DNA of 64,000 nucleotides from assembly GCA_964574655.1 (NCBI GenBank), contig CAZNOH010000001.1, forward strand, positions 471,020 to 535,019, in the 5' to 3' direction. The translations under genes and the position numbers were made by a program. Positions 3,158 to 53,704 of this stretch are shown here, piece after piece; position 1 is the stretch's first letter; every line of letters begins with the position of its first letter. The notes beneath the pieces are model-generated. The model saw only the letters and a program-made list of their open reading frames with translations, made no database searches and was not told where the DNA came from. The DNA comes from an uncultured Candidatus Saccharibacteria bacterium (GTDB lineage Bacteria > Patescibacteriota > JABMPQ01 > JAQVVF01).

Positions 3158-3197
3158 AGGTTTAATGTGGTTATTTGTTTAAAAACGTAAATTATAA

Positions 3198-3292: not shown

Positions 3293-3297
3293 GTATT

Positions 3298-6197: not shown

Positions 6198-7274
<1,077 letters not shown>

Positions 7275-34854: not shown

Positions 34855-35663
34855 TTGGTTATAAATTTAATACCGACAAGAAATCTTAATGAGTACATTC
34901 CAGCTGTTAGGATTGGAGATTTAGCTATTCTTTTCCATTTTCCTTTTTCAATGAATACTCCAAAAAAACGGTAATAAAATCCAAGCTGTTTTTTTATATC
35001 AGGATCTTGTTTTGGCCATTTGTTAACATATTTATCAAAACTAACAATGTAGTATCCTTTTTTTTGAATGTACTTTTTTAAATTAAAATTTATTTCATTG
35101 TGATATAGCGGATTTGTTGAAATATCTACGTTGCCTAAATTTCTAATTTTTTTATCAAAATCCCAGTCCTCGGGCCCAGATATTGATTCATCAAACCCTC
35201 CACTTTTTAAAAAGTATTTTTTATTAACAAACCTGACTGCATCAATTACTGTACCATCATAAAAACTTCTTTCAAAGCGCCGAACCTTATTCCAAAATTT
35301 ATCGCCCATAATTACTTCTGGAATATACAATGCAATAACATTTGAATATTTTACTTTTTGAACACAATCTTCCAATAGTCCTGGCGATAAAATCATATCC
35401 GCATCTAGATATAGAATCCACTCACCTCTTGAATTTAAAACACCAAAATTTCTTTGTGCTGATCTTTCTGAACCTTTTATAAAAATCAGCTTAGTATATC
35501 TATGTGCTATCTTTGTTGTTCGGTCGCTCGAATTATTATCAACAACAATAATTTCTATTTTGTCTTTTGGATAGGTTTGTTTTCTAATTGATTCGAGACA
35601 ATTTTTAATGTTGCTTTCTTCGTTTTTAGTTGTAATAATAATTGAAACTAGTTTTTGATTCAT
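34851..35663 (-). CDS. glycosyltransferase family 2
   Basis: VSIIITTKNEESNIKNCLESIRKQTYPKDKIEIIVVDNNSSD motif. Confidence 0.8.
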   Translation of the reverse strand: MNQKLVSIIITTKNEESNIKNCLESIRKQTYPKDKIEIIVVDNNSSDRTTKIAHRYTKLIFIKGSERSAQRNFGVLNSRGEWILYLDADMILSPGLLEDCVQKVKYSNVIALYIPEVIMGDKFWNKVRRFERSFYDGTVIDAVRFVNKKYFLKSGGFDESISGPEDWDFDKKIRNLGNVDISTNPLYHNEINFNLKKYIQKKGYYIVSFDKYVNKWPKQDPDIKKQLGFYYRFFGVFIEKGKWKRIAKSPILTAGMYSLRFLVGIKFITK

Positions 35664-37870
35664 AAATTATTGCCAAATAAAATTTTTCTGAATGATATTT
35701 TTTCAATATTAATATTTTCCGGATAAAGCCACCATGCAAATCCCATATTTTTTTCTAATTCCACTGTTACTTTCTTTATTTTTCTGGGTTCTGGAAACAA
35801 AGCCTTTATTTCTTGAGTTTTGTTGATATTCACTAAATCGTATTTTAAATAAATTGGATTTTTTTTGTTATCGGTTTCAATATGAATGTTCCAACGATAT
35901 TTTACGAAATATTTCTTAAAGATGCTATCATCTAATTTTAGCTTCAAAATAACATCAGAAACATTTGAGATTGGTTTTTCGAGAGTCATGGTCCAACTCG
36001 CACGCGAACCTTTTATAGAGTAGCTATTCCCATCATTTTTTTCTAATAACTTTAGGGCAATATTATTTTGATTAAAATCAGTTATCTCGGAAATTATTTC
36101 TCTATTCTGGATATTTGCTGGTTGAGCTTTAGGCGCCATAATGATCGCCCTATCGTTGTAATAAACGGGTGTATAATTCTCTAAAATAAATTTTTCTATT
36201 TTATTTCCGTCGCCGGTAAAAATAGGACTATTCTTCTCATTACTGGAAAAATAACCAGCATCAAGTTTGTCCGTCGTAGTGGATGCAATGCAACAAAACA
36301 TTTTATCTTTTATGCTAATGTTGATAACGATAAATTTAGGTGGATTATTCTTAATCTGAACAAGCGCTTGATTGATAAATTTTTCACCGTAATTATCTAT
36401 ATAAAAGTAGATTGGATTATCAAAAATAATTGGTGATTTTCGGCGTGCTACTTGATTAATTATTCCCCATGGATATTCGTATACAAAATCTTTAGCATCT
36501 GAGTTTTTAATAATATAATCAATAGTTTCTTCGAACTTATCTTTGACATTTTTATCAAGATAATACGCGAGTGATGGAGAATATGATTTGGTTGTTTTTG
36601 AGAACTGCGGTAAAATTCTGTAGGGATTATAATCAAAAATTTTGGCAATATATCCTGTATTTTCAGAAATGATAAACCACAAAACAATTATAAAAATACC
36701 GAGATAGCCAAAAAACTTAAACGATTTATTTTTGCTTCTTTGCAATAAGAAATAGAAGTCATATATTGTAATTGTCAGCAATAAAAAGAATGGCACTAAA
36801 CCGTACGTAAATATTGATATTTCTGGATTTTGAAGAGTGCGAAAATAGACTAAAAGGCCAAAGATTATTAAAAATATTTTTATTAAGTTTTTTTGGCTAA
36901 TTTTTCGGGATTTAATTGAAATAGTAATTGATGTAGCAAAATAAATAATAAAAAATATAAATATAATATATAAATTCAATCTGGAAATAAATTCTAATGG
37001 AATATTGAATATCTCTAAGTTGTAATTATCATGAAAACGTAATTCCGAGAAACGAGCGAAGCTTGCGCCAGATCCTGGCCCAGCATAATAAAAGAGACTG
37101 GCTGTATTCAAAAAGTATTTCCAAAATTCCATGAAGGTGCCTTGCAAAAAAAGAAGCAATGAATATGGGATAAAGATAACCATTTCACCTAATAAAAACT
37201 TGGTAACATAAATGGTGCCTAGTTTTTTATTATCCGACCAGATATTAAAAAACAAAATTATTAATATGGCGGCATTTAAGGCAATTGCGTATTCCATTGA
37301 AGTCAGCATGGCAATTCCGCCTATTATTCCGCTGACAAAAAGCCAAAGCGATTTTTTCTGATAAAAATAAAATATGAAAAAAGCGAGACTTAATTCTGCA
37401 GAAAGGTGCCTTATCGATGTCAGCTGATCGTTAACTCCGAATAAAAGCAAGAAAAATAAAAATAGCAGAACTAGGCTATCTTTTCTTAATATTAATTTTC
37501 CAATAAAATAGCTGACTATTATGCCAATTACTGGAAGAAAAATGTAGTTACTTATTATGATGGCTAGAAAATTATGTCCAAAGATCAAATAACCGATTGA
37601 CTGCAAAAAAAGAAAAAATATTCCATAGTTAAAAAAATAGTCTTTATACATTACATCAAAAGAAAGAAAATGTTCGACTGAATTCCAAAATTGGTTAAGG
37701 TCAACAGAGTTTATGACAGTAGATGCATTATTCAGAATTCTAAAAAAATCTGTGAGTATGATAAACGCATAAGCAATAAAAATTAATGCATATAAAAATA
37801 TATAAATTGTTTTTTTATATTTATTGAAAAAAATGTGATGCGGTGTTTTTAATGTCTCTTTAATATCCAT
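35660..37870 (-). CDS. large polytopic membrane protein with about 330-aa C-terminal soluble domain, putative GT-C-type glycosyltransferase
   Basis: 736 aa. N-terminal about 400 aa multi-TM, and a C-terminal hydrophilic domain. Confidence 0.55.
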   Translation of the reverse strand: MDIKETLKTPHHIFFNKYKKTIYIFLYALIFIAYAFIILTDFFRILNNASTVINSVDLNQFWNSVEHFLSFDVMYKDYFFNYGIFFLFLQSIGYLIFGHNFLAIIISNYIFLPVIGIIVSYFIGKLILRKDSLVLLFLFFLLLFGVNDQLTSIRHLSAELSLAFFIFYFYQKKSLWLFVSGIIGGIAMLTSMEYAIALNAAILIILFFNIWSDNKKLGTIYVTKFLLGEMVIFIPYSLLLFLQGTFMEFWKYFLNTASLFYYAGPGSGASFARFSELRFHDNYNLEIFNIPLEFISRLNLYIIFIFFIIYFATSITISIKSRKISQKNLIKIFLIIFGLLVYFRTLQNPEISIFTYGLVPFFLLLTITIYDFYFLLQRSKNKSFKFFGYLGIFIIVLWFIISENTGYIAKIFDYNPYRILPQFSKTTKSYSPSLAYYLDKNVKDKFEETIDYIIKNSDAKDFVYEYPWGIINQVARRKSPIIFDNPIYFYIDNYGEKFINQALVQIKNNPPKFIVINISIKDKMFCCIASTTTDKLDAGYFSSNEKNSPIFTGDGNKIEKFILENYTPVYYNDRAIIMAPKAQPANIQNREIISEITDFNQNNIALKLLEKNDGNSYSIKGSRASWTMTLEKPISNVSDVILKLKLDDSIFKKYFVKYRWNIHIETDNKKNPIYLKYDLVNINKTQEIKALFPEPRKIKKVTVELEKNMGFAWWLYPENINIEKISFRKILFGNNL

Positions 37871-39072: not shown

Positions 39073-40005
39073 TTAAAAATTAATTTTCTGCTTAACGATA
39101 TAAAGTGGCCTACCGTTAATTTCACTAATGAGCTTTGAAAAATAAAGTGAAAAGATTCCCCAGATAATAAAATTGATGTTGATCATTATAAAGATTGCAG
39201 CAATTACATAAACCCATTTATTGACAAATATTCCTTCTAAAATAAATTTGTAGATTAAGTAGACTATTATAACAATTGATGATGCTAATCCTAGAATACC
39301 GATATAAAACGGAAGTTTTAATGGCAAATCAGAGAAAGATATAATTGCATCTTCTGCTAGTTTTAATGATGATCGGAATGAATATGTTGGTTTGCCCGCA
39401 AAACGATTATCTCTGTCATATTCCAAACCAATTTGCTTGAAACCGACCCAAGCGCGAATACCGCGAATGTATTTGCTTCTTTCTTTAAATGAGATAATTT
39501 CTTTCTTAATCTTCTTGTCAATTAGAGAAAAATCACCTGAATCTTTTGGAATTGGAACCTGTGAAATCTTGTTTAAAATTCGGTAGAATATTTTTGCTAA
39601 AATTTTTTTTAGCATTTTATCTTTTCTGGTTCTTCTGATCGCGTAGACGACATCATAACCCTGTTCCCATTTTTTTATCATTTCTGGAATGAATTCAGGA
39701 GGATCTTGAAGATCGCTATCCATAACAATAATCGCATCGCCATTAGCATGCTCTATTCCGGCGCTAATAGCTATTTGCTGTCCAAAATTTCTTGAAAAAT
39801 CAATCAGCTTGAATCTGCTGTCAGCTCTCGCTTTTCTAACTAAGATTTCATAAGAATTATCGATACTGCCATCATTGACAAAGATAAATTCAATTTTGTA
39901 CGCCAAAAGATTATTGGCTAATTTATCGAGCCTGTTTAAGAGCTCCTCTAGAATGCTGGCTTCATTAAATACTGGCAACACAATTGAGATATTTTTGTCT
40001 GACAT
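39073..40005 (-). CDS. GT2 polyprenol-phosphate glycosyltransferase (GtrB/ArnC-like)
   Basis: ISIVLPVFNEASILEEL ... VNDGSIDNS ... IIVMDSDLQDPPEFIPEMIKKWEQGYDVVYAIR plus two C-terminal TM helices. The classic GtrB/ArnC architecture. Confidence 0.8.
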   Translation of the reverse strand: MSDKNISIVLPVFNEASILEELLNRLDKLANNLLAYKIEFIFVNDGSIDNSYEILVRKARADSRFKLIDFSRNFGQQIAISAGIEHANGDAIIVMDSDLQDPPEFIPEMIKKWEQGYDVVYAIRRTRKDKMLKKILAKIFYRILNKISQVPIPKDSGDFSLIDKKIKKEIISFKERSKYIRGIRAWVGFKQIGLEYDRDNRFAGKPTYSFRSSLKLAEDAIISFSDLPLKLPFYIGILGLASSIVIIVYLIYKFILEGIFVNKWVYVIAAIFIMININFIIWGIFSLYFSKLISEINGRPLYIVKQKINF

Positions 40006-40017
40006 TATATAAAAATA

Positions 40018-40926
40018 TTATTTTTTTTGAGCTGCAATTATGAGCTCGTCTTTTTCTTTAACAAAATATTGGGCTAGATAGTAGAAAGGAGATAGCAACA
40101 GTTGTTCCATAAAAATCCCTGACCTGAAGAACTGTCTAATAATCTTGATCTTTTTTGATTCTTGATTGTTCCTATAGAAAATCTTTATTTTTTCTTGTTG
40201 ATTTTTTCCTAATTTTGAATACAAGAAATAGCCTAGCGAAAAGATTGGGTAATGAATCGAACTCAATGCTTTTGTTGAAGATTTCATTATCGTAAAATTA
40301 TTTTGTTCCAACCAAATTTTTGCAGACTGACTTGTAAAAAAACTGATATGCTGTGGAAAACAGATTACTGGACTATTTTTCTTTAGCTGTTTAATAAAAA
40401 AAGCGTTCCCATTAGGCGTGAACAGAATTAGAGCACCGTTTTTTTTAAGCTTTTGCTTGATATTCGAAATAAAAGTGCTAAATTCTTTTGGTTCGATATG
40501 CTCTAGAACGTGAAAAGAACAAATCACATCAAACTGCTCGTTCGCTAGACTACTAAGATCGTTAACTGGAATAACATTATTTACTCTTTTTGAAAAATCT
40601 AAAGCAAACTTCGATTTTTCATAACTATAGACAGTGCATTCTTTTTTTTCTTGCAGGAGATTGCCAAAAAAACTTAAACCGCCACCAATTTCGAGAATTT
40701 TAGATCTTGCCTTAATAAATTTTTCTGATTTGCGGTAATAATCTCTGGCTGCTATTCTGCTTTTTAGAATTAGATTCTGATCTGTATAACCATCAACGTA
40801 GTCTATTTTTTGGTCTTCTGGAATTCTTTTCAGAAAAAAACATTTAGGACATTGGTAATACTCATATGCTTCGTCATACTTAAAAAATGGGCTCAACTCA
40901 TTTCTACAAATATCACAATTTGGCAT
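40018..40926 (-). CDS. class I SAM-dependent methyltransferase with N-terminal CxxC...CxxC zinc ribbon (tandem paralog A)
   Basis: CDICRNEL...CPKCFF zinc ribbon. ILEIGGGLSFFG motif I and DVICSFHVLEHI motif. Confidence 0.75.
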   Translation of the reverse strand: MPNCDICRNELSPFFKYDEAYEYYQCPKCFFLKRIPEDQKIDYVDGYTDQNLILKSRIAARDYYRKSEKFIKARSKILEIGGGLSFFGNLLQEKKECTVYSYEKSKFALDFSKRVNNVIPVNDLSSLANEQFDVICSFHVLEHIEPKEFSTFISNIKQKLKKNGALILFTPNGNAFFIKQLKKNSPVICFPQHISFFTSQSAKIWLEQNNFTIMKSSTKALSSIHYPIFSLGYFLYSKLGKNQQEKIKIFYRNNQESKKIKIIRQFFRSGIFMEQLLLSPFYYLAQYFVKEKDELIIAAQKK

Positions 40927-40929
40927 ATC

Positions 40930-41871
40930 TTATATTATCCCTTTGATATTATTTTTTGCAACAACTAGCAATTCATCTTTTTGGCTAGTAAATAGATCAA
41001 CCAAGTAATGTAGCGGAAGCAAGCATATTCTTTCTGCAAACGTAATTTTTTTAATTATATTTATACAAGTGTTTTCTTTTTTGCTGATTGGTTTTTTTCT
41101 TGCCATTTCAATTAAATTATTTTTTTTACTCCTTAATAGATAAGTCGCTAAAAAACTTGGAGAGATCAAAGGATAATGTATATAAGACAATATTCTTGTT
41201 TCCGAATCAATTATTTCAAAAGTATGGTTTTCTAGCAAGATTTTTGCTGATCTCTGCGAAAAAAATGATATATGATCAGGAAAACAAATGCATGGATATA
41301 ATTTTTTAAACAGGTTCATCTTCGATGAATGGCCATTAGGAGTTAATATGATTATCAAGCCATCTTTTTTTAACTTTTGTTTTATAGTTGCAATGAATTT
41401 ATTAAATTCATTTGGTTCGATATGTTCTATGACATGGAATGCACAGATGACGTCAAACATTCCATTATATTTTTTCTGATCAATATCAGTTATTGGAACG
41501 ACATTGTTTATTTTTTTTGAATAATCTAAAGCATACTTTGATAATTCGTAATTATAAACATCACATTTTTTTTCGTCGCTTAAGATCTTTCCAAAAAAAC
41601 CTAAACTTCCGCCTATTTCAAGCACTTTTTGTTCAGACGAGAAATAATTTTTGAGCTTACGATAATAATTTTTTGCTAATATTTTGCTTCTATTAATCGC
41701 ATTGCTATTCATATATTCATTTACATAATCTATTTTAGCGTCCTCTGGACTTCTTTTTACGAAGTTGCAATTTGGGCATTTGTGATATGAATAGTCCTTA
41801 TCGTAAATAAAAAAAAGCTTCATGTTTCCATTGCAGATATTACATTTGTGGATAGTTTGGAACATAAACAA
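40930..41871 (-). CDS. class I SAM-dependent methyltransferase with N-terminal zinc ribbon (tandem paralog B)
   Basis: CNICNGNM...CPNCNF, VLEIGGSLGFFG, DVICAFHVIEHI. About 45% identical to the adjacent gene by eye. Confidence 0.75.
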   Translation of the reverse strand: MFMFQTIHKCNICNGNMKLFFIYDKDYSYHKCPNCNFVKRSPEDAKIDYVNEYMNSNAINRSKILAKNYYRKLKNYFSSEQKVLEIGGSLGFFGKILSDEKKCDVYNYELSKYALDYSKKINNVVPITDIDQKKYNGMFDVICAFHVIEHIEPNEFNKFIATIKQKLKKDGLIIILTPNGHSSKMNLFKKLYPCICFPDHISFFSQRSAKILLENHTFEIIDSETRILSYIHYPLISPSFLATYLLRSKKNNLIEMARKKPISKKENTCINIIKKITFAERICLLPLHYLVDLFTSQKDELLVVAKNNIKGII

Positions 41872-41876
41872 TATTT

Positions 41877-43337
41877 TTATTTCTTAAAATCTGTTAGATG
41901 CCCGATCACTTTTATTCCAGCCTTCCATAAAAATTTTAAGTCGTCAAGATTTCTAGTTTGACTAATTTTTTTAAAGATAAATTTTGGAGACATAAAAGCT
42001 TTGTACAATCCTGATGTTAGTTCTTTGACATCAGAAGTTGTTAAAACACTTTTCATAACTTGTTCTCGCTGATCGAAGCGATCATAATCAGTAAAATTTA
42101 GTAAATTATTTTCTAGACAATATTTATATAATGGCGTACCTGGATAAGGTATTAGTACTGTTGCCTGAAGAGTGTCAACGTAACCTTTTTTAAATAAATC
42201 TTTTGCAAGACAAACAGTTCTTTGTGCATCTTCTTTTGTCTCCCAAGGATAGCCAATCATGGCAGTAATATGTGGCTCCAAGCCTGCTTGCTTGCAAATT
42301 CTTAAACCATATTCAATTTCTTCTACTTTTAGATTTTTATTAATTCTATCTAATGTTTTTTGATTTGCCGATTCTAGGCCAAACAAAACAAAACGAAAAC
42401 CTGCTTGCTTCATCAACTGCCAAATCTTTGGATCTTTAATGCCACTAATCCTCATATTGCAGCTCATGGTAACTTTTTTGTTGTAACCTTTTTCGATCAT
42501 GCCATTGCAAAATTCTTCTAGCCAATTTCCGATTGGTAATGATCCTGAATCTTCCATAATTTCTTTAACACCTAATTTTATAAGTTCACCAACCTCATCA
42601 AGAGCTAATTTTGCTGAGCGCGTGCGGAAATGCTGGCCTGGAAAAAGTGTTGTCCAAGAACAAAACGTACATCTCCCCCACCAACAATCACGGCCTGACA
42701 TCATGTACGTGCCTGGAGTATGCTTAAAATTACCATTTTTAAAGGCATATAATTGCCATTCAACAAGCTTACGATCAATCATTGGTAAGCTGTTTAAATT
42801 ATGCCTAGATAAATCAACTGGACCAGAATTTTTAATTATTCCATTTTCTCTATACCAAATTCCGCCTTCTAAATTTTCTCCCTTGCTTAGATGATTAGCT
42901 AGGTTTAATAATAGAAAATCAAAATCTCCACCAGTTAGAACATAATCAACTTTTGAATTCTTAAAAGACTCTTCTGGCATTGCAGTAACATGATCACCCA
43001 TCAGAACAATTTTTAAATTTTTATCTTTAATTTGTTCTTTCAGCTCATTTATTATTTTCCAGTGCTTTTTTATAACAGGTGTTTTTGATTCTATAACTAG
43101 AATATCAGGTTTTGTATTAATTATATCGCTAAGCCATTTTTGATAAGTCTGTTCTTTGGCAATTCCATCATGCCAAAAAACCTGATGGCCATTTTTCGAT
43201 AATAAAGTCGCAGCATAAGCGGGAATAACTGGAAAAATATAGGTTGGAGAATTAAACCATTGAAATTGACGGTTCTGAGATAACAACGGCGTGCCTTTTT
43301 CTGATTGAATGGGCGGATATGAGATTGAAATCTTCAT
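41877..43337 (-). CDS. B12-binding-domain radical SAM enzyme (class B radical SAM methyltransferase-like)
   Basis: N-terminal Rossmann-like B12-binding region, then the cluster CWWGRCTFCS (CxxxCxxC-type motif) and GDF-type glycine-rich region. 486 aa. Confidence 0.7.
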   Translation of the reverse strand: MKISISYPPIQSEKGTPLLSQNRQFQWFNSPTYIFPVIPAYAATLLSKNGHQVFWHDGIAKEQTYQKWLSDIINTKPDILVIESKTPVIKKHWKIINELKEQIKDKNLKIVLMGDHVTAMPEESFKNSKVDYVLTGGDFDFLLLNLANHLSKGENLEGGIWYRENGIIKNSGPVDLSRHNLNSLPMIDRKLVEWQLYAFKNGNFKHTPGTYMMSGRDCWWGRCTFCSWTTLFPGQHFRTRSAKLALDEVGELIKLGVKEIMEDSGSLPIGNWLEEFCNGMIEKGYNKKVTMSCNMRISGIKDPKIWQLMKQAGFRFVLFGLESANQKTLDRINKNLKVEEIEYGLRICKQAGLEPHITAMIGYPWETKEDAQRTVCLAKDLFKKGYVDTLQATVLIPYPGTPLYKYCLENNLLNFTDYDRFDQREQVMKSVLTTSDVKELTSGLYKAFMSPKFIFKKISQTRNLDDLKFLWKAGIKVIGHLTDFKK

Positions 43338-43361
43338 GAAATTAAAATTTATTTTATATTC

Positions 43362-44108
43362 CTATTTTTTTTGAGCGATAATAACAACGAATGATCCGGA
43401 AGATAGAGATTTAGAAAATCTTTTTTGAAATTTATATACTATATTTTTGAGGCTGTAGATTGAAGAAATCTTATTTTTTGAAACAATGGGAAGAAAATCT
43501 GAATTAATTGAAATAATATTGTATGAATTTAATACTTTTTTATAATCACAAATTTCGTGGCTAGTCTCATTTGGTGTTACTAAATTACGCTTAATTAAAA
43601 AATCATTACCAACTATTTTTTCAAGCATTTTTCTGTTCATTTGAGAAAATTTGTTGATAATATTTGAACCGTTTGGTTCCATAATGATAATAGTCCCCTT
43701 TTCTTTAAGCCAAAAATCTAAATTACTTGTAACTTTTTCAAGGTCAGGAAAATGATGGAGAACAAAAGGACAAAGTATAAAATCAAATTGTTCTTTGTTG
43801 AATTGATCTTTATTATCCAAATCTCCTGATATTGCATGATAATTTTTTGTTTTATCATTCGCTAATTTAACCATGTTGGGCGCAATTTCTAATCCAGTTA
43901 CTTGGAGTTCTGGAAATTTATTTAAAAGATATTTTCCAAACACTCCAGTGCCACATCCTGCCTCAAGCATTTTTCCTCTTAAGTTTACTCTGTTTTTCGA
44001 TACAAAATTATACAAATATTCATAATATTTTTTGTCGGTTAACTCATAGGAATTTTTGTTAACAACATTAAAGAATTCAATTTCGTAATCTTTATTTTGG
44101 TGTTGCAT
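43362..44108 (-). CDS. class I SAM-dependent methyltransferase
   Basis: MLEAGCGTGVFGKYL motif I, ILCPFVLHHF, IIIMEPNG. Confidence 0.75.
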   Translation of the reverse strand: MQHQNKDYEIEFFNVVNKNSYELTDKKYYEYLYNFVSKNRVNLRGKMLEAGCGTGVFGKYLLNKFPELQVTGLEIAPNMVKLANDKTKNYHAISGDLDNKDQFNKEQFDFILCPFVLHHFPDLEKVTSNLDFWLKEKGTIIIMEPNGSNIINKFSQMNRKMLEKIVGNDFLIKRNLVTPNETSHEICDYKKVLNSYNIISINSDFLPIVSKNKISSIYSLKNIVYKFQKRFSKSLSSGSFVVIIAQKK

Positions 44109-44146: not shown

Positions 44147-45124
44147 TTACCGATACTTACTTTTTAATTCTTTTGTAAAAATAAATCCTTGCAGAAATCT
44201 GATTCCGTACCAGATATGTGTAAGGAAAATGTAATAAAAAGTATTAAATATTATTAAGATATTTTTTTCGTATTTATAAATATCCAAAAATGTTTTTATG
44301 TAGGAAAGAATATAGATTCCCCAGCCCAGCAAATATAAATTAAAAATAATTTTTGAAAAAATACTAGCGATTGCACCTATAATTATAAAAGCTACAAATA
44401 AACTTGGAACAAAGTATTTTAATTTTAAAGAAGTCTCTGGATATTTCTTGGCGAAAAAACCACGGTGAATTCCATAATTTCCGACTTGCTTTAAGTGAGC
44501 TTGCAATCCTTGACGGCGATGATGGTAAACAATCAATTCTGGATCGTAAATTATTTTACCTTGATTCTCTTTTAACAAATCAATGCATAACTTTGTATCT
44601 TCTCCTGGCCAATATTCTGAATTAAAGCCTTTTGCTAGCTGAAAATTGTTTTTTCTAATTGACAAATTGACGCTCGGCCAATCATTAATAAATCTTTTTT
44701 TGCCAACTGGCACATAACGCTCTGGAAATCCGCCAGAGAAACTGCTTAAAAAAACTGATCCGGAAACTTTTTGCCAAAAATTATCATCATCAGGAGTTAC
44801 AGCTGGACCGCCGACTGCAATTATATTTTTATCTTTAAAATCTCGGTCAAGAATTTCTAATAAATCACTCTTTGGATAAGCATCATCGTCTACAAATATT
44901 AGTATCTCGCCTTGCGCATCTTTGATTGCCAAATTTCTTTTCATTGCCGGTCCGCCAGGACCACTGGCGATTTGCTTTGTCTTTGGCCAGCTCTCTGAAT
45001 TTTTCTCGTTCGGATAAATAACTATCTCAAAATCATCTCTTTCAATTTCCAGAATTTTAGAAACAGTTTCTCTAATATAATCGTTAATTTCTTTAACTGG
45101 GATAATAAAACTATATTTGATCAT
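44147..45124 (-). CDS. glycosyltransferase family 2 with C-terminal TM helices
   Basis: FIIPVKEINDYIRETV ... IFVDDDAYP. Three hydrophobic helices at the C-terminus. Confidence 0.7.
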   Translation of the reverse strand: MIKYSFIIPVKEINDYIRETVSKILEIERDDFEIVIYPNEKNSESWPKTKQIASGPGGPAMKRNLAIKDAQGEILIFVDDDAYPKSDLLEILDRDFKDKNIIAVGGPAVTPDDDNFWQKVSGSVFLSSFSGGFPERYVPVGKKRFINDWPSVNLSIRKNNFQLAKGFNSEYWPGEDTKLCIDLLKENQGKIIYDPELIVYHHRRQGLQAHLKQVGNYGIHRGFFAKKYPETSLKLKYFVPSLFVAFIIIGAIASIFSKIIFNLYLLGWGIYILSYIKTFLDIYKYEKNILIIFNTFYYIFLTHIWYGIRFLQGFIFTKELKSKYR

Positions 45125-45134
45125 AGCTCGAATG

Positions 45135-46064
45135 TTAGAGCTTTTTTTGATTGATAATATAAAGCGGTCGATTTATAACTTGAAAATTGATATTGGCAAT
45201 ATACAAAGCAATAAGTCCTAAACAACTCAAGACAATGCCAATCAAAAATAAATTTATGATTGCTAAGATAGCTGGACCTGAGAAATTCTGCATTTTTAAC
45301 ACATAATTGGAAATAAACATGTAGACTCCCATGAGCCCTGAACCGATTGTGATAAATATCCCAAGATAACCCGCAATTTTTAATGGAAATAGACTCAAAG
45401 ATACAAATGATGAGAAGGCTAGTCGAACTAGCTTTACAAAGCTATATCCAGGTCGACCTTCTCTTCTATCTTCTGCGTCAAAATAGACATATTTTTTTTC
45501 AAATCCCAGCCAATCGATTAATCCGCGCGTAATTCTGTTTTTTTCTCTAAGCTTATTGAATTCATCAATGACCTGTCGATCTAAAAGTCGATAATCTGTT
45601 GATCCTTGAACCATTGTTGTTTCTGAAATATTATTTAATATTTTGTAGAATAGCCAAGAACCAATTTTTTTAGAAATTTTGTCACTTTTGCTTTTGTTTC
45701 TGACACCGATAACGACCTTGCTGCCTTTTTGCCAATATTTAATGAATTTTGGAATTAAGTATAAGGGATGTTGCAAATCTGCATCTATTGTGATTGCTGC
45801 ATCGCCATGGCAAAAATTAAGACCAGCTGTTGTTGCAATTTCTTTTCCAAAGTTTTTTGTAAAATCTAGATATTTGATTTTACTATTTTGGTTTGATAGA
45901 TTTTTCAGAACGTTTCGGCTATTATCTTTGCTCCCATCATTGACAAAGATTATTTCGTAAGTTAGATTTGGGATTTTATTCAAAACTGAATTAACCTCTC
46001 GATAAAAATATTCTAAATTTTTTGATTCATTATACGCCGGAACTATTATTGATACCATTGACAT
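45135..46064 (-). CDS. GT2 polyprenol-phosphate glycosyltransferase (GtrB/ArnC-like)
   Basis: VSIIVPAYNESKNLEYF ... VNDGSKDNS ... ITIDADLQHP, plus two C-terminal TM helices. The ORF-track start at 46112 (MSAEAERSEAKADPKA) would overlap the upstream flippase. The internal MSMVSIIVP start is preferred. Confidence 0.75.
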   Translation of the reverse strand: MSMVSIIVPAYNESKNLEYFYREVNSVLNKIPNLTYEIIFVNDGSKDNSRNVLKNLSNQNSKIKYLDFTKNFGKEIATTAGLNFCHGDAAITIDADLQHPLYLIPKFIKYWQKGSKVVIGVRNKSKSDKISKKIGSWLFYKILNNISETTMVQGSTDYRLLDRQVIDEFNKLREKNRITRGLIDWLGFEKKYVYFDAEDRREGRPGYSFVKLVRLAFSSFVSLSLFPLKIAGYLGIFITIGSGLMGVYMFISNYVLKMQNFSGPAILAIINLFLIGIVLSCLGLIALYIANINFQVINRPLYIINQKKL

Positions 46065-46086
46065 AGCTTTTGGATCCGCCTTCGCC

Positions 46087-47370
46087 TCACTTCGTTCGGC
46101 TTCGGCGGACAAAGGGAAAATATACTAAAACCAAACAGAAAGCTGCCGAACAGCTTATCAGGATTAAACATATCATAATAACTTGGAAAAGTGAAGCGTG
46201 AAAAAAGCAAATTAAAATAATTTGTAATAATGATGCACTTATCAAGAATGGCAAAAAAATGAATTTCTTAATTGAAATTAAATAAGTAATAATAAGATTT
46301 AGGATTGAATACGCAGTCATAACTATGCTCATAACTCCTAGCAAATTACTGCCTTGTAAGTATTTTTCTCCAAAAAGCATCTTGATAATCTGATCTGGAA
46401 AGAAAAAATATAAGATATTTAAAATTATGCTTGTTACGATAACTAGCAAAAGCGCGACGAAAAATAGATGTTGATGTTTTTCTTGTCGCTCAAATTTTTC
46501 TGTCGCCATTGGCAAAAGGACTGAAGCAATGATGCCTGTTCCAAAAAAGATGATTCGGGTAAGCATTGCTAATGAGCTGTAAAGACCAGCCTGCAAATCA
46601 GTAAAATAGTGTTTGACTAAAATTAAGTCAATATTATATAAAAGTGTTAAGCAAAGAGAAGTAACAAAAAAATAGCTGATGCTTTGTATTTGTTTAGAAC
46701 TAATTTTTATTGGCTGAAGATCTTTCTGATTTATTTTACGAGAATTGAGATCTTTTATTAAAAAGTAAACAATAATTGCGCAGATAACTGAAGGAAAAAC
46801 AAACCCAGCTACAGCTCCGGAAACTGAAAATCCAAGCAAAACTAATCCAACACCTAATATGATTTTGAGTATAGTACCAATGACGTTAACAATGGAAAGT
46901 GCTTTGAATCTTTGCAAACCTTGTAAAATTGATATATAAAAACTGCCTACATAGGCAAGCACAAGGCATGAGGCCATGATTATTATTGGAATCTGCGAAA
47001 CTTTTAAATATCCAGCTATTGGACCAGAGAAGATTGTCAATGCTAAAAATATAATAATTCCAAAAAAGAAAAATTTCTTTTCAAAATAGGATTTAAACTG
47101 TGCGAGTTTTTTAAAGAGCTTCTTGGATTTTAATTCTGCAACTTTTCTAGTCCCTGCAATAATAATTGCACCGCCAATCATAGTAACAATTAAAAAAATA
47201 CTTTCTAGAGAAACTAATTGGCCATATTCGTCAACCGTAAGCACACGGCCTATTATTAAATTGAATAAGTAGTTTAAAACACTTGCTATTATTGTGCCAG
47301 CAAAAAGAACAGCTGTATTTTTAAAAAATAGACTGCTTAATAATTTTTGTTTGATTTTATATAACAACAT
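46087..47370 (-). CDS. Wzx-like flippase (MOP superfamily), second copy
   Basis: 427 aa, about 12 TM helices, NTAVLFAGTIIASVLNYLFNLIIGRVL N-terminus typical of Wzx/polysaccharide biosynthesis proteins. Confidence 0.75.
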   Translation of the reverse strand: MLLYKIKQKLLSSLFFKNTAVLFAGTIIASVLNYLFNLIIGRVLTVDEYGQLVSLESIFLIVTMIGGAIIIAGTRKVAELKSKKLFKKLAQFKSYFEKKFFFFGIIIFLALTIFSGPIAGYLKVSQIPIIIMASCLVLAYVGSFYISILQGLQRFKALSIVNVIGTILKIILGVGLVLLGFSVSGAVAGFVFPSVICAIIVYFLIKDLNSRKINQKDLQPIKISSKQIQSISYFFVTSLCLTLLYNIDLILVKHYFTDLQAGLYSSLAMLTRIIFFGTGIIASVLLPMATEKFERQEKHQHLFFVALLLVIVTSIILNILYFFFPDQIIKMLFGEKYLQGSNLLGVMSIVMTAYSILNLIITYLISIKKFIFLPFLISASLLQIILICFFHASLFQVIMICLILISCSAAFCLVLVYFPFVRRSRTK

Positions 47371-47574: not shown

Positions 47575-48513
47575 ATGAAACGCATTTTAATAACAGGAGG
47601 AGCAGGATTTATTGGTTCGCATTTATGCGAATATTTATTGAAAAAAAATCACGAAGTAATTTGTGTTGATAATTTTTTTACTGGCCAAAAAAACAATGTC
47701 AAACATTTATTAAAAAATCCTTATTTTGAAATTATCAGACATGATGTAACTTGGCCTTTGTATGTTGAGGTTGATCAGATTTATCATCTTGCTTCACCTG
47801 CTGCACCAATTCATTATCAAAAAGATCCGATTCAAACGACAAAAACTAATGTATTAGGCGCAATTCAAATGCTTGGCTTGGCTAAAAGATTGAAAATTAA
47901 AATCTTGCTGTCTTCAACTTCAGAAGTTTATGGCGATCCAAAAGTTCACCCGCAGAAAGAAAGCTATTGGGGTAATGTCAATTGTTTAGGTCCTAGAGCG
48001 TGCTACGATGAAGCAAAAAGATGCGCAGAGACATTATTTATGGATTATTGGCGGCAAAATAAGGTAAAGATAAAAATTGTGAGGATTTTTAATACTTACG
48101 GTCCCAGGTTAGCTATGAATGATGGCCGAGTGGTTTCTAATTTTCTTATCCAGGCTTTGCAAAATGAACCAATTACTATTTATGGCAAAGGCACGCAGAC
48201 TCGATCTTTTTGTTATGTTGATGATTTAGTCAGAGGACTTTATAAAATGATGGAAACTGATGACAAAATTACTGGGCCAATAAACTTAGGAAATCCTGGA
48301 GAATTTACAATGTTGGAACTTGCAAAGCTTGTAATTAAAATGACGAAATCTAAAAGCAAAATTATTTATGAGCCATTGCCAATTAATGATCCAAAACAAA
48401 GAAAGCCGGATATTGCATTGGCTAAAAAAGTTTTGAATTGGTCTCCAACAATCAATCTTGTTTCTGGACTCAAGAAAACAATCCCATATTTTAAAACTAA
48501 GATAAAGAATTGA
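47575..48513 (+). CDS. UDP-glucuronate decarboxylase (UDP-xylose synthase)
   Basis: [19 protein letters not shown]...[21 protein letters not shown] (YxxxK). The UXS/ArnA-decarboxylase pattern. 312 aa. Confidence 0.85.
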
Positions 48514-53038: not shown

Positions 53039-53704
53039 ATGAAGAAAATTTTATGCGTTGTAATGGCAATGTGTTTCCTTGTTTCATTGTCATTTGCATT
53101 AAACGCATCAGCAAAAAATGTTAAAAAGAACAAGCCATTAAATGTGACAGTTGATTCATCTGTGCAGGTTCCGGAAAATTTGAAAGTGCTGGATAGAAGA
53201 TCGACAACTAGCCATGTCATTTGGGACGAGGTAGAAGAAGCAGATAAATATGAATTGAGAATTGCTGATAATAATGAGATTGTTTTGGGTTATCTTAGGT
53301 CAAATATTAATTATAAAACTGTTTCTAGTAAATGGTTGGTTTCTAACAAAACTTATAAAATTGCTGTCAGGACAATAAATGGAGCTTTGGCTAGCGAATG
53401 GAGCTCGTATGTTTCTTTCAGGACTAAACCAGCAAAAGTGAAAAATGTTTTAGTCACGAGCATAACTGAAAATTCAGCTGTTGTTTCTTGGAATGCTTGC
53501 AGAGGTTCAAATTTAAAATATCTTGTAAAATTAACTGATGGAAGCAACGAATTAATATCAACTAATTATGTAGCTGGCAGAACTCTAACATTGTCAGGAT
53601 TATCATCAAATACTGCCTACAAAGTTAAAGTACAAGCTCAAAACATCACTAAAAATTCTGATAAAGGCGCTTTGTCTGAAGAAGTTTTATTTGAAACGCT
53701 TTAA
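53039..53704 (+). CDS. secreted protein with two fibronectin type III-like domains
   Basis: Signal peptide MKKILCVVMAMCFLVSLSFALNASA. Two about 90-aa units with the FN3 pattern (PxNLKVLDRRSTTSHVIWDEV...YELRI...Y.I.VRT.N and PAKVKNVLVTSITENSAVVSWNA...YLVKL...AYKVKVQAQN). Confidence 0.7.
   Translation: MKKILCVVMAMCFLVSLSFALNASAKNVKKNKPLNVTVDSSVQVPENLKVLDRRSTTSHVIWDEVEEADKYELRIADNNEIVLGYLRSNINYKTVSSKWLVSNKTYKIAVRTINGALASEWSSYVSFRTKPAKVKNVLVTSITENSAVVSWNACRGSNLKYLVKLTDGSNELISTNYVAGRTLTLSGLSSNTAYKVKVQAQNITKNSDKGALSEEVLFETL

What the first reader, a model, noticed from the sequence alone, without database searches (positions are those of the whole stretch)
40018..44108. Sugar-methylation cassette: tandem duplicated Zn-ribbon methyltransferases, a B12-binding radical SAM enzyme and a further methyltransferase
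Four consecutive minus-strand genes inside the glycan locus. Two are paralogous MTs (302 and 313 aa), each with an N-terminal CxxC…CxxC zinc ribbon preceding a Rossmann SAM fold. This domain arrangement recalls nucleotide-sugar C-methyltransferases of the TylCIII/TcaB9 type. The third is a 486-aa cobalamin-binding radical SAM protein with a CxxxCxxC-type cluster motif (CWWGRCTFCS). That class methylates unactivated carbons, and known examples such as GenK/Fom3 act on sugars or sugar-like substrates. The fourth is a 248-aa class I MT. An FkbM MT lies at 10056. Together they predict a heavily C- and/or O-methylated sugar in the product, which is unusual chemistry.
Basis: partly seen in the sequence, partly recalled or inferred. 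Interest (0 to 1): 0.65.

Follow-up and report, generated by a model that had tools for sequence, protein, structure and literature searches.

The report
Sugar methyltransferases beside GT-coupled radical SAM
Four real genes sit in a cell-surface-sugar locus of a tiny Patescibacteria-type bacterium: three are methyl-adding enzymes inserted recently, and the fourth, a radical enzyme, belongs to a widespread unstudied gene pair (membrane sugar-transferase plus radical SAM enzyme) shared by many anaerobic bacteria and archaea, whose chemistry is unknown.

Summary
The four minus-strand ORFs exist as described. There are two 47%-identical Zn-ribbon methyltransferases (MTs), a 486-aa B12-domain radical SAM (rSAM) protein and a 248-aa class I MT, all inside a ~43-kb glycan locus. 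One correction: the rSAM cluster motif is Cx4Cx2C, not CxxxCxxC.

They are not one conserved cassette. In 80 related loci the rSAM's partner is the membrane-anchored GT2 at 44147-45124. It lies upstream on the same strand in 63 loci, with a median gap of 4 bp where directly adjacent. A PgfS/ArnC-like polyprenyl-phosphate GT2 and a flippase often accompany it. Archaeal loci add AglB and AglH.

The pair occurs in Patescibacteria, Desulfovibrio relatives, Methanocaldococcus, Bathyarchaeia and DPANN at 50-79% identity. The locus of a relative whose rSAM is 91% identical lacks all three MTs at these positions, so they are lineage-specific insertions.

The Zn-ribbon MTs' closest characterised relatives are the NDP-sugar C3-methyltransferases TcaB9, KijD1 and MtmC. 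Both TcaB9 catalytic histidines are conserved, but the C-terminal sugar-nucleotide domain is absent.

The rSAM's closest fold is AprD4, a sugar diol-dehydratase, so methylase function is unproven (about 40%).

The interesting object is the uncharacterised GT2-rSAM module.

The parts
40018..40926 (-). Zn-ribbon class I methyltransferase, paralog A (302 aa). Probable sugar methyltransferase; accessory gene.
   Evidence: ORF. Methyltransf_23 at 59 bits. 47% identical to paralog B. No transmembrane segment. Singleton cluster in the 15-billion-protein collection.
40930..41871 (-). Zn-ribbon class I methyltransferase, paralog B (313 aa from the TTG; an ATG lies at codon 3).
   Evidence: Only 6 homologs at E <= 1e-5 among 5.8 billion clusters. 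AF2 model pLDDT 75 with a Zn ribbon, a Rossmann fold and a low-confidence helical tail. Top PDB folds are KijD1, TcaB9 and MtmC. A profile search also finds them, with H150 and H200 aligned to TcaB9 H181 and H225. No Methyltransf_13/14 match.
41877..43337 (-). Class B-type (B12-domain) radical SAM enzyme of an uncharacterised, GT2-coupled clade. It has a Cx4Cx2C motif (C218/C223/C226), an invariant N-terminal QNRQFQ loop, and conserved C277 and C293.
43362..44108 (-). 248-aa class I SAM methyltransferase, inserted between the normally overlapping GT2 and rSAM genes.
   Evidence: blastn synteny with L086 breaks exactly around this gene. There are 10 homologs besides itself, at 30-47% identity. 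The three contexts examined (39-46% identity) are other glycan loci, and none lies between a GT2tm and an rSAM of this family.
44147..45124 (-). Membrane-anchored GT2 ('GT2tm', 325 aa), the conserved operon partner of the rSAM.
   Evidence: Glycos_transf_2. MftF-, EpsD- and AglG-like, all below cut-off. Hydrophobic C-terminal region. A homolog lies upstream on the same strand in 63 of 80 loci and within 300 bp in 57. Where directly adjacent the median gap is 4 bp, and 14 loci have 4-bp overlaps. 85% identical in L086.
45135..46112 (-). PgfS/ArnC/GtrB-like polyprenyl-phosphate glycosyltransferase (325 aa, 2 C-terminal TM helices). Part of the conserved module.
   Evidence: PgfS model 221 bits and ArnC model 128 bits, both below cut-off. 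TM helices. A related GT2 cluster occurs in 58 of 79 loci, mostly at -2 or -3. A BLAST homolog lies within 6 kb upstream in 41 of 80 loci.
46087..47370 (-). Wzx-type flippase (427 aa, about 11 TM helices). Part of the conserved module in Patescibacteria.
   Evidence: Polysacc_synt. TM count. Present in 34-36 loci. Syntenic with L086.
47575..48513 (+). SDR-family nucleotide-sugar dehydratase, decarboxylase or epimerase, divergent from the operon and syntenic with relatives.
   Evidence: Epimerase/GDP_Man_Dehyd. Resembles dTDP-Glc dehydratase, UDP-xylose synthase and ArnA, all below cut-off. Syntenic with L086 at 84% nucleotide identity.
39073..40005 (-). Second PgfS/ArnC-like polyprenyl-phosphate glycosyltransferase (310 aa, 2 TM helices), directly downstream of the Zn-ribbon MTs.
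   Evidence: PgfS model 243 bits and ArnC model 164 bits, both below cut-off. TM helices. 35% identical to the other PgfS-like gene's ortholog in L086.
35660..37870 (-). 736-aa protein with about 11 N-terminal TM helices and a ~330-aa soluble C-terminal part. The architecture is GT-C-like; this assignment is inferred.
   Evidence: No Pfam or NCBIfam hit. TM profile.
10056..10982 (+). FkbM-family methyltransferase elsewhere in the same glycan locus.
   Evidence: Methyltransf_21 at 35.6 bits, above the cut-off of 22.7.

Best explanation
The region is one operon of a Patescibacteria surface-glycan locus in which two things of different ages are interleaved.

(1) An ancient, widely shared module. 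It comprises an SDR nucleotide-sugar enzyme (47575-48513), a Wzx flippase (46087-47370), a PgfS/ArnC-like polyprenyl-phosphate glycosyltransferase (45135-46112), a membrane-anchored GT2 (44147-45124) and the class B-type radical SAM enzyme (41877-43337).

Inferred mechanism: the PgfS-like enzyme loads a sugar onto undecaprenyl or dolichyl phosphate, and the membrane GT2 adds or installs the target sugar. The soluble rSAM is normally translationally coupled to that GT2. It would abstract a hydrogen atom from the lipid-linked sugar at the cytoplasmic face and modify it. The product would then be flipped and used by GT-C enzymes (AglB in archaea).

The chemistry is not determined. My single most likely guess is cobalamin-dependent C-methylation of an unactivated sugar carbon, as in MoeK5, GenK or GenD1 (about 40%). 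The alternatives are AprD4-like dehydration or deoxygenation (about 25%), HpnJ/Cds/OxsB-like ring contraction to a carbocycle (about 15%), and epimerisation or something else (about 20%).

(2) Three lineage-specific class I SAM methyltransferases, dropped into and just after this module. These are the 248-aa MT between the GT2 and the rSAM, and the duplicated Zn-ribbon MTs after the rSAM. They most likely methylate sugars of the same glycan. The Zn-ribbon pair is a truncated two-domain relative of TcaB9-type sugar C3-methyltransferases and keeps the His/His catalytic pair. Whether it methylates O or C is open; I favour O-methylation at about 60:20.

What is shown: gene order, conservation, domain and fold assignments, and the insertion history. 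What is inferred: the lipid-linked substrate, the order of steps and every chemical outcome.
For: - ORFs and domains.
- The rSAM family is large and highly conserved. There are 6230 hits at E <= 1e-10 among the 8000 scored candidates, and the 120 listed are 68-91% identical, the named ones all Patescibacteria-group. It is 50-60% identical in Methanocaldococcus indicus, Methanoperedens, Bathyarchaeia, DPANN, Fundidesulfovibrio, Spirochaetota and Planctomycetia.
- A GT2tm homolog lies upstream on the same strand in 63 of 80 loci, within 300 bp in 57. Three further cases are hidden by ORF-start artefacts. Where directly adjacent the median gap is 4 bp, with fourteen 4-bp overlaps.
- A PgfS/Dpm1-like GT2 cluster occurs in 58 of 79 loci and Wzx in 34.
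- Archaeal loci carry AglB/STT3, an AglH-like GT4, and a flippase-like gene directly after the rSAM. UDP-glucose dehydrogenase occurs in 11 loci, including Methanocaldococcus.
- In the locus whose rSAM is 91% identical, GT2tm and the rSAM overlap by 4 bp. Synteny with the window breaks exactly at the 248-aa MT and again after the rSAM.
- BLAST at E <= 1e-8 matched the window's MTs in only 3 of 80 loci. phmmer finds generic class I MT-domain matches in 10-18 loci, all 186-265 aa, none seen to carry a Zn ribbon.
- All four cassette proteins are soluble, while both PgfS-like GT2s and the GT2tm are membrane-anchored.
- Zn-ribbon MT similarity to TcaB9, KijD1 and MtmC by fold and by profile, with conserved histidines. 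Glycan context of distant homologs.
- rSAM fold: AprD4 > OxsB > TsrM > CysS > TokK.
- Residues in the two loops that contact cobalamin in known Cbl domains (after strand 1, QNRQFQ; after strand 3, E83-x-K85-T-P87-V88...H92-W93) are at least 97% conserved in 76 sequences. This is weak support for a real cofactor site.
Against: - No biochemical datum exists for any member. The literature searches found no characterised homolog.
- The lipid-linked nature of the rSAM substrate is inferred only from neighbours. A nucleotide-sugar, protein-bound or polymer substrate is not excluded.
- Cobalamin binding cannot be read from sequence. AprD4, the best structural match, does not use cobalamin to my knowledge; one review groups it as 'unrelated' to the B12-dependent enzymes.
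- Patescibacteria and DPANN usually cannot make B12 (general knowledge).
- The HpnJ and BchE hits are generic for class B enzymes, so they do not discriminate.
- About 14 of 80 loci lack the GT2tm upstream. At least two DPANN loci have a shorter Dpm1-like GT2 there instead.
- The MTs could act on something other than sugars.
- Class I MTs of other kinds recur near the rSAM in at least 19 loci, so methylation may be more than incidental to the module.
Confidence: 0.62

Rival explanations
1. The four genes form a dedicated sugar-methylation cassette. The rSAM is a cobalamin-dependent C-methylase (GenK/Fom3-like). The Zn-ribbon MTs are TcaB9/TylCIII-type C-methyltransferases acting on NDP-4-keto sugars. 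The product is a heavily C- and O-methylated sugar.
For: - The rSAM has class B architecture, and most characterised class B enzymes are methylases (reviews read).
- The Zn-ribbon MTs' nearest characterised relatives are sugar C3-methyltransferases, with both catalytic histidines conserved.
- The locus makes 4-keto-6-deoxy intermediates, with Gmd at 6201-7274 and an RmlD-like gene at 31451-32353.
- A fifth MT, FkbM type, lies at 10056.
Against: - The genes are not co-inherited. The MTs are absent at these positions from the locus whose rSAM is 91% identical, and the Zn-ribbon form was seen in none of 80 other loci.
- The rSAM's constant partner is a GT2, not an MT.
- Methyltransf_13 and Methyltransf_14 do not match and the C-terminal domain is missing.
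- Tyr222 of TcaB9 is not conserved, and Glu224 is D in paralog B and Q in paralog A.
- The rSAM's best fold match is a non-methylase.
Confidence: 0.2
2. The rSAM is an AprD4-like radical dehydratase. It removes a hydroxyl from a vicinal diol of the lipid-linked sugar without using cobalamin. A neighbouring SDR reduces the resulting keto-deoxy sugar, giving a deoxy sugar made at the lipid-carrier stage.
For: - AprD4 is the best structural match over the whole length: E = 2.6e-21, TM 0.72/0.77.
- It is the second-best PDB sequence match.
- AprD4 acts on a sugar (the PDB title names its substrate paromamine).
- SDR genes occur within six genes of the rSAM in 35 of 79 loci, and one is syntenic in the module.
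Against: - The AprD4 NCBIfam model scores only 39 bits against a cut-off of 500.
- AprD4's high TM score partly reflects its similar size.
- The cobalamin-contact loops of the N-terminal domain are near-invariant, which is unexpected if the domain were vestigial.
- SDRs are common in any glycan locus.
Confidence: 0.15
3. The GT2-rSAM pair is analogous to HpnI/HpnJ and to calditol synthase. The GT2 puts a hexose on a lipid acceptor, and the rSAM contracts the pyranose ring to a five-membered carbocycle (cyclitol). The result is an acid- and glycosidase-resistant head group or glycan unit.
For: - HpnJ is the best NCBIfam model, aligned over the full length (158 bits).
- OxsB, a ring-contracting enzyme, is the second structural match.
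- The GT2-then-rSAM logic parallels hopanoid HpnI/HpnJ and the glucose-to-calditol conversion by Cds (review PMC13459092).
Against: - 158 bits against a cut-off of 577.6.
- The HpnJ model is the generic top hit for many unrelated class B proteins.
- There are no hopanoid or GDGT genes in the window or in the loci.
- The context is polyprenyl-phosphate and N-glycosylation (AglB, Wzx), not membrane-lipid head groups.
Confidence: 0.1
4. The three class I MTs are not sugar methyltransferases. They methylate protein, RNA, lipid or a small molecule and sit in the glycan operon only by insertion.
For: - Pfam and NCBIfam hits are generic (CFA synthase, UbiG, BioC), all far below cut-off.
- The Zn ribbon matches no specific family.
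- N-terminal Zn fingers also occur in rRNA methyltransferases such as RlmA (my own knowledge, not tested here).
Against: - The closest characterised PDB relatives are sugar C3-MTs.
- All six examined contexts of distant homologs are glycan, NDP-sugar or nonulosonic-acid loci.
- The genes are tightly packed inside a co-directional glycan operon.
Confidence: 0.1

Closest known systems
TcaB9 / KijD1 / MtmC / TylCIII NDP-hexose C3-methyltransferases
   Same: Both have an N-terminal four-Cys Zn ribbon followed by a Methyltransf_23-type Rossmann domain. These enzymes are the best functionally characterised PDB matches by fold and by profile. TcaB9 His181 and His225 align with invariant H150 and H200.
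   Different: Pfam Methyltransf_13 and Methyltransf_14 do not match. The window proteins are about 100 aa shorter and lack the C-terminal domain, having instead a low-confidence helical tail. Tyr222 becomes Phe, and Glu224 becomes Asp in paralog B and Gln in paralog A. Sequence identity is about 15%. The family is very rare, with 6 hits.
Sugar-acting class B radical SAM methylases (GenK, GenD1, Fms7, MoeK5)
   Same: Both have a B12-type Rossmann domain plus a radical SAM barrel, and both have a carbohydrate context. By my own knowledge, MoeK5 C-methylates a uronic-acid unit of a lipid-phosphoglycerate-linked saccharide, which is a close conceptual precedent. UGDH genes accompany the module in 11 loci.
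   Different: No sequences of these enzymes were available for direct comparison. The window enzyme's clade has Cx4Cx2C rather than Cx3Cx2C. Solved methylases (TsrM, CysS, TokK, QCMT) match less well than AprD4 by fold. The operon partner is a GT2, not an antibiotic pathway.
AprD4 radical SAM 1,2-diol dehydratase (apramycin)
   Same: It is the best structural match over the whole chain (TM 0.72/0.77), has a similar length and acts on a sugar.
   Different: Identity is 16%. The NCBIfam AprD4 model scores 39 bits against a cut-off of 500. AprD4 works on a soluble aminoglycoside, whereas here the context is polyprenyl-phosphate glycan assembly.
HpnI (GT2) / HpnJ (class B rSAM) of hopanoid cyclitol-ether synthesis; calditol synthase Cds
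   Same: The logic is the same: a GT2 is followed by a B12-domain rSAM acting on a lipid-anchored sugar. HpnJ is the top NCBIfam model.
   Different: The score is far below cut-off and non-specific. There is no hopanoid or tetraether context. The GT2tm does not hit the HpnI model.
GtrB / PgfS / ArnC polyprenyl-phosphate glycosyltransferases with a flippase and GT-C (Gtr, Pgf and Arn systems); Haloferax AglJ/AglG
   Same: The flanking GT2s (39073-40005 and 45135-46112) have the GT2 domain plus two C-terminal TM helices. PgfS and ArnC are their best models. A Wzx flippase and GT-C-like proteins are in the locus. The Arn pathway also modifies the sugar while it is on undecaprenyl phosphate (ArnD; my own knowledge).
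   Different: All scores are below the equivalog cut-offs. None of those systems contains a radical SAM enzyme.

Membership tests
TcaB9/TylCIII-type NDP-sugar C-methyltransferases | N-terminal zinc-binding domain recognised by Pfam Methyltransf_13 (PF08421) | tested here: not met
   There is no PF08421 hit for either full protein or for the isolated N-termini at E <= 10.
TcaB9/TylCIII-type NDP-sugar C-methyltransferases | Four-Cys Zn ribbon directly preceding the SAM-binding Rossmann domain (architecture) | tested here: met
   CxxC-x18-CxxC is present in both paralogs. It forms a confident three-stranded ribbon in the AF2 model. Foldseek alignments to TcaB9 and KijD1 span about 330 columns. 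The MtmC profile alignment starts at query residue 29.
TcaB9/TylCIII-type NDP-sugar C-methyltransferases | C-terminal domain (Pfam Methyltransf_14, PF08484) that forms the NDP-sugar site | tested here: not met
   There is no PF08484 hit. The proteins are 302-313 aa against 416-426-residue PDB chains. Residues about 230-300 form a low-confidence helical tail.
TcaB9/TylCIII-type NDP-sugar C-methyltransferases | Catalytic residues His181, Tyr222, Glu224 and His225 (TcaB9 numbering) | tested here: inconclusive
   H181 aligns with H150 and H225 with H200, both invariant in the 7-sequence family alignment. E224 aligns with D199 in paralog B and Q in paralog A. Y222 aligns with F197. A His base would serve O-methylation equally well.
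TcaB9/TylCIII-type NDP-sugar C-methyltransferases | C-methylation of an NDP-4-keto-hexose | not testable with these tools
   This needs an enzyme assay.
Class B (cobalamin-dependent) radical SAM enzymes | Radical SAM core with a three-Cys [4Fe-4S] motif | tested here: met
   PF04055 scores 56 bits against a cut-off of 29.5. C218, C223 and C226 are invariant in 76 of 76 sequences, but with Cx4Cx2C spacing.
Class B (cobalamin-dependent) radical SAM enzymes | N-terminal B12-binding Rossmann domain | tested here: met
   PF02310 scores 25 bits for this protein, below the cut-off of 32.1. Most close homologs carry a precomputed PF02310 annotation, and two intein-bearing homologs scored here pass at 34 and 40 bits. 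The AF2 model has the Rossmann domain and aligns along its length with OxsB, TsrM, CysS and TokK.
Class B (cobalamin-dependent) radical SAM enzymes | Actual cobalamin binding and methyl transfer (SAH plus 5'-dA formation) | not testable with these tools
   AprD4 shows the fold alone is insufficient. Conserved contact loops give only weak support.
HpnJ (NCBIfam TIGR03471) | Score at or above the equivalog cut-off of 577.6 bits, plus hopanoid gene context | tested here: not met
   The score is 158 bits. The same model is the generic top hit for unrelated class B proteins. There are no hpn or shc genes in the window or the loci.
AprD4 family diol dehydratase (NCBIfam NF033070) | Score at or above the cut-off of 500 bits | tested here: not met
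   The score is 39 bits, although AprD4 is the best fold match.
GT2-coupled Cx4Cx2C radical SAM clade (defined here) | RDCWWG[KR]CxFC motif, N-terminal QNRQFQ loop, and a membrane GT2 immediately upstream on the same strand | tested here: met
   The window has the GT2tm upstream, but separated from the rSAM by the inserted 248-aa MT.
PgfS/GtrB/ArnC polyprenyl-phosphate glycosyltransferases (the flanking GT2s) | GT2 catalytic domain plus two C-terminal TM helices, and an equivalog score | tested here: inconclusive
   The architecture is met. The PgfS model scores 243 and 221 bits against a cut-off of 500, and ArnC scores 164 and 128 against 529. They belong to the family, but the sugar specificity is unknown.

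The most novel reading that the evidence does not exclude
The translationally coupled pair of a membrane GT2 and a Cx4Cx2C B12-domain radical SAM enzyme may be a previously unrecognised, cross-domain pathway. It is found in Patescibacteria, DPANN, methanogens, Bathyarchaeia, sulfate reducers and spirochaetes. It would perform a radical, non-methylating transformation (deoxygenation, ring contraction to a carbasugar, or C-C branching) on a sugar while the sugar is attached to its polyprenyl-phosphate carrier. That would create an unknown monosaccharide in N-glycans and surface glycans of these largely uncultured anaerobes.
Probability: 0.3. Interest if true: 0.8.

Novelty: new variant of a known kind. 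Interest (0 to 1): 0.58.

Why it matters
Surface glycans of Patescibacteria and DPANN mediate attachment to their hosts, and their chemistry is essentially unknown. This work identifies a very large rSAM family: 6230 hits at E <= 1e-10 among the 8000 candidates scored, and 531 representatives of 50%-identity clusters at E <= 1e-30. The family is strongly conserved and is genetically coupled to a membrane glycosyltransferase in N-glycosylation and glycan loci across both prokaryotic domains. No function has been assigned to it.

Cultured carriers exist (Methanocaldococcus indicus, Fundidesulfovibrio agrisoli), so the question is directly testable. Whichever reaction it performs (C-methylation, deoxygenation or carbocycle formation) would be radical chemistry on a carrier-lipid-linked sugar. 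I found no report of this in prokaryotic glycan assembly.

The Zn-ribbon MTs are a rare two-domain offshoot of the TcaB9 fold. They could show how that scaffold works without its nucleotide-sugar domain.

Tried and rejected
- **HpnJ lead.** The 158-bit HpnJ hit looked specific. However, ten more distant representatives all have HpnJ as their generic top model with equal or higher scores, alongside BchE and P-methylases. I rejected it as evidence of function.
- **GT2-rSAM fusions.** The 890-970-aa representatives turned out to be intein-containing rSAMs, not fusions. The 'long' rSAM ORFs in four loci are start-codon artefacts.
- **Literature.** Six searches found no characterised homolog or described GT2-rSAM pair. 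They covered HpnJ and ring contraction; B12 rSAM with glycosyltransferase and Patescibacteria; rSAM with AglB; Cbl-rSAM with undecaprenyl; rSAM with dolichol phosphate; and calditol synthase. The calditol paper PMC6305003 is not held.
- **Sequence rules for cobalamin binding.** The review read gives none that can be applied here.
- **Rfam.** There are no RNA families in the window.
- **MT family test.** I tested whether the window's MTs belong to the class I MT cluster that recurs near the rSAM in 19 loci. Only a generic MT-domain similarity of 70-79 bits was found, and none of those proteins was seen to carry a Zn ribbon.
- **The B12-rSAM near a 248-aa-MT homolog (L091).** It belongs to a different family, with 24% identity and a canonical Cx3Cx2C motif.
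- **Exact-cluster look-up.** It gave no informative names.

Full report

Yes.
- 40018-40926 (302 aa)
- 40930-41871 (313 aa)
- 41877-43337 (486 aa)
- 43362-44108 (248 aa)

They are separated by 3, 5 and 24 nt. They lie inside a long co-directional gene string that runs from the Wzx gene at 47370 down to at least 31451. The window has about 30% GC, so ORFs of this length cannot be chance. All products exist in public collections, from an NCBI Patescibacteria-type assembly with a 654-kb contig.

The two MTs are paralogs with 47% identity, E = 6e-101. Each has an N-terminal CxxC...CxxC before a Methyltransf_23/11/12 Rossmann domain. The 248-aa protein is a generic class I MT.

The 486-aa protein has Radical_SAM at 56 bits and a sub-threshold B12-binding hit (25 bits against a cut-off of 32.1). 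Most close homologs carry a precomputed PF02310 annotation. Two intein-bearing homologs scored here pass the cut-off at 34 and 40 bits.

One correction is needed. CWWGRCTFC is C218-x4-C223-x2-C226, not Cx3Cx2C.

The FkbM MT at 10056 and the glycan nature of about 4.5-47.4 kb are confirmed. That region carries two Glf genes, Gmd, SDRs, two Wzx genes, many GT1, GT2 and GT4 genes, and a GT-C AftD-like protein.

**2.

A homolog search scored 8000 candidates and found 6230 at E <= 1e-10. The best 120 are 68-91% identical, and those that carry a source name are from Patescibacteria-group bacteria. A scan of one genome per species found 155 relatives. The 80 kept range from 79% to 49% identity. They include Falkow-, Moran-, Magasanik-, Saccharibacteria, WWE3, Fundidesulfovibrio agrisoli, Thermodesulfobacteriota, Spirochaetota, Planctomycetia, Actinomycetes, Methanocaldococcus indicus (58%), Methanoperedens, Bathyarchaeia, Micrarchaeia and many DPANN archaea.

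I called ORFs in all 80 loci and compared them with the window's proteins:
- A homolog of the membrane-anchored GT2 at 44147-45124 ('GT2tm') lies upstream on the same strand in 63 of 80 loci, and within 300 bp in 57.
- Three more cases are masked by an over-extended rSAM ORF, and two loci are cut by the contig end.
- Where the GT2tm is the immediate neighbour (54 loci), the median gap is 4 bp and fourteen loci have the 4-bp ATGA-type overlap. This is the signature of translational coupling.
- In at least two DPANN loci without a GT2tm (L076, L079), the -1 gene is a 260-aa Dpm1-like GT2.
- A PgfS/Dpm1-like GT2 cluster is present in 58 of 79 loci, mostly at -2 or -3.
- A Wzx flippase is present in 34 loci, an SDR nucleotide-sugar enzyme in 35, and UDP-glucose dehydrogenase in 11.
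- Archaeal loci carry AglB/STT3 (8 loci), an AglH-like GT4-family enzyme (10 loci), and an MprF-type flippase-like protein directly after the rSAM.
- In Methanocaldococcus indicus the order is GT2tm, rSAM, a small YdjM-like membrane protein, GT2, MT, GT2, then a 974-aa membrane protein.

The constant context is therefore polyprenyl-phosphate-based glycan or N-glycan assembly. The constant partner is a GT2, not a methyltransferase.

**3. The methyltransferases are recent insertions**

BLAST at E <= 1e-8 matched the window's MTs in only 3 of the 80 loci. phmmer finds generic class I MT-domain matches to the Zn-ribbon MTs in 10-12 loci. All of these are 186-265 aa, and none was seen to carry a Zn ribbon.

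In the genome whose rSAM is 91% identical (L086), the order is epimerase, Wzx, PgfS-like, GT2tm, rSAM, with GT2tm and the rSAM overlapping by 4 bp. blastn shows L086 6766-10000 matching window 47374-44151, and L086 10001-11448 matching window 43337-41884. The 248-aa MT gene (window about 44150-43338) is therefore an insertion exactly at the junction.

Synteny ends after the rSAM. The window instead carries the two Zn-ribbon MTs, a second PgfS-like GT2, a 390-aa GT and a 736-aa protein with 11 TM helices that is GT-C-like.

Both MT families are rare. The Zn-ribbon MT has 6 proteins at E <= 1e-5. The 248-aa MT has 11 at E <= 1e-8, out of 5.8 billion clusters.

**4. What the Zn-ribbon MTs are**

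Pfam finds only generic MT domains. Methyltransf_13 and Methyltransf_14 are absent even at E <= 10, including for the isolated N-termini.

- An AF2 model (pLDDT 75, with a confident ribbon and Rossmann core) has KijD1, TcaB9 and MtmC as its top Foldseek PDB hits. E is about 1e-13 and TM about 0.5, only narrowly ahead of generic MTs.
- Independently, a 7-sequence family profile ranks KijD1 (55 bits), TcaB9 (53.5) and MtmC (47) just behind two uncharacterised structural-genomics MTs.
- In the residue alignment, 'FHVIEHI' pairs with TcaB9 'ANTLCHI' and 'FPDHISFFS' pairs with 'IYD(E/Q)HFFLFS'. The 4E2Y E224Q entry fixes the numbering. This gives H181 to H150 and H225 to H200, both invariant in the family. 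It also gives E224 to D in paralog B and Q in paralog A, and Y222 to F.

The proteins are about 100 aa shorter than TcaB9-type enzymes. They have no counterpart of the C-terminal domain, which from my memory of the TcaB9 papers forms the dTDP-sugar site. A low-confidence helical tail takes its place.

All three examined contexts of distant homologs are glycan loci: GT2 with Wzx; GT1 with GT9; and a NeuB/CMP-transferase nonulosonic-acid cluster. The same holds for three homologs of the 248-aa MT.

I conclude that they are sugar MTs and a truncated offshoot of the TcaB9 scaffold. Membership of the family fails on two of its three domains. The C-versus-O question is open. A His base serves both reactions, and O-methyl sugars are far commoner in surface glycans (general knowledge).

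**5. What the rSAM does**

Shown:
- It has class B architecture.
- The model is confident (pLDDT 85.7, pTM 0.88).
- The best fold match is AprD4, a radical SAM sugar 1,2-diol dehydratase (TM 0.72/0.77). OxsB (ring contraction) comes next, and only then the methylases TsrM, CysS and TokK.
- By sequence it is remote from everything solved: QCMT/MgmA at 39 bits and AprD4 at 35 bits.
- The HpnJ model is the top NCBIfam hit (158 against a cut-off of 577.6), but it is equally the top hit of unrelated class B proteins.
- The clade at roughly 35% identity or more is marked by an extended first Cys spacing (Cx4, sometimes Cx7 or Cx9). Relatives at 32% identity or less have Cx3Cx2C.
- 85 positions are at least 97% conserved in 76 bacterial and archaeal sequences. 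They include the loop after strand 1 (L19, Q21-N-R-Q-F-Q26), the loop after strand 3 (E83, K85, P87, V88, H92, W93), G114-D-H116, and C277 and C293.
- According to the review read, those two loops are where MetH, OxsB and TsrM contact the lower face of cobalamin. Their invariance is weak evidence that the domain binds a cofactor.

Inferred:
- The soluble rSAM is recruited by the membrane GT2.
- It acts on the polyprenyl-phosphate-linked sugar before flipping.
- Precedents for editing a sugar on its lipid carrier are ArnD and DprE1/E2 (my own knowledge). Conceptual precedents are HpnI/HpnJ and Cds. MoeK5 is a precedent for a class B methylase on a lipid-linked uronic acid (my own knowledge; it is listed as a methylase in the review).

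I cannot decide the chemistry. My estimates are C-methylation about 40%, AprD4-like dehydration about 25%, ring contraction about 15%, and other about 20%.

**6. Comparison with the known, and novelty**

The MTs are new members of known kinds, and the Zn-ribbon pair is a rare truncated variant. The rSAM is a class B-type enzyme of an uncharacterised clade with a non-canonical motif. It has a fixed GT2 partner and a cross-domain distribution in glycan and N-glycosylation loci.

Six literature searches and three recent reviews list no such enzyme. I therefore rate the whole as a new variant of a known kind.

**7. Verdict**

- Interest is 0.58. The MTs themselves are ordinary. The GT2-coupled rSAM module is a large, conserved and testable unknown in the surface-glycan biology of Patescibacteria, DPANN and methanogens.

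Noticed in passing
Homologs P0121, P0123, P0124, P0127, P0128 (insertion at about residues 226-280 in window rSAM numbering, window 41877-43337): Several members of the rSAM family are 665-972 aa because of a ~400-aa insertion next to the Fe-S cluster motif. In P0121, P0123 and P0128 this insertion is an intein (Intein_splicing, Hint and a LAGLIDADG homing endonuclease). Inteins typically target highly conserved sites.
   Followed up: partly
window 1055-4101 (minus strand): A CysN-like GTPase (1919-3157), a CysD-like PAPS_reduct-domain protein (3298-4101) and a type I phosphodiesterase-like protein (1055-1807) sit at the left edge of the glycan locus. This suggests sulfate activation and possibly a sulfated glycan. 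A related Phosphodiest protein also accompanies the rSAMs in DPANN loci (L079:14988-15857).
   Followed up: no
window 41824-41871: The public gene call for Zn-ribbon MT B (P0271, 297 aa, 100% identical) starts 16 codons downstream of the TTG; an ATG is also available at codon 3. That call removes the first CxxC of the Zn ribbon. Conservation with paralog A argues for the longer form.
   Followed up: partly
L055:11474-11893, L001:11537-12052 and about 12 other loci; absent from the window: A small (135-175 aa) YdjM-like membrane protein lies directly downstream of the rSAM in about 14 loci from Patescibacteria, Methanocaldococcus and Micrarchaeia. It may be a third component of the module.
   Followed up: partly
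L067, L073, L076, L079, L001:15448-16866, L086:19928-21337: Many loci, especially DPANN, carry one or two further class B-like rSAM paralogs (22-30% identity) within 10 kb. In L086 one follows three MTs (Methyltransf_11, FkbM, Methyltransf_23). Another B12-rSAM family, with a canonical motif, sits two genes from a homolog of the 248-aa MT in L091.
   Followed up: partly
window 35660-37870, 26886-29261, 25166-26902, 20955-24560, 15322-16857: There are five large polytopic membrane proteins with 8-11 predicted TM helices. Only one has a Pfam hit (GT-C_AftD, 26886-29261). The 736-aa protein downstream of the second PgfS-like GT2 has a GT-C-like layout. Two UDP-galactopyranose mutase genes (5009-6112 and 30322-31410) point to galactofuranose.
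   Followed up: no
window 57837-60686, 60863-62146, 53039-53704: The sharp GC rise (0.41-0.50 against about 0.30) coincides with a 949-aa protein carrying MopE-motif repeats and a Laminin_G_3 domain. Its neighbours carry a MopE plus C-type lectin domain and an fn3 domain. These are candidate surface (glyco)proteins. L086 has a similar MopE/Laminin_G_3 protein nearby.
   Followed up: no
window 47575-48513 and L001:7975-8913: The SDR that travels with the module resembles dTDP-glucose 4,6-dehydratase and UDP-xylose synthase or the ArnA decarboxylase domain, all below cut-off. UGDH occurs in 11 loci. Together these hint that the carrier-linked sugar could derive from UDP-glucuronate, with logic like the Arn pathway.
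   Followed up: partly
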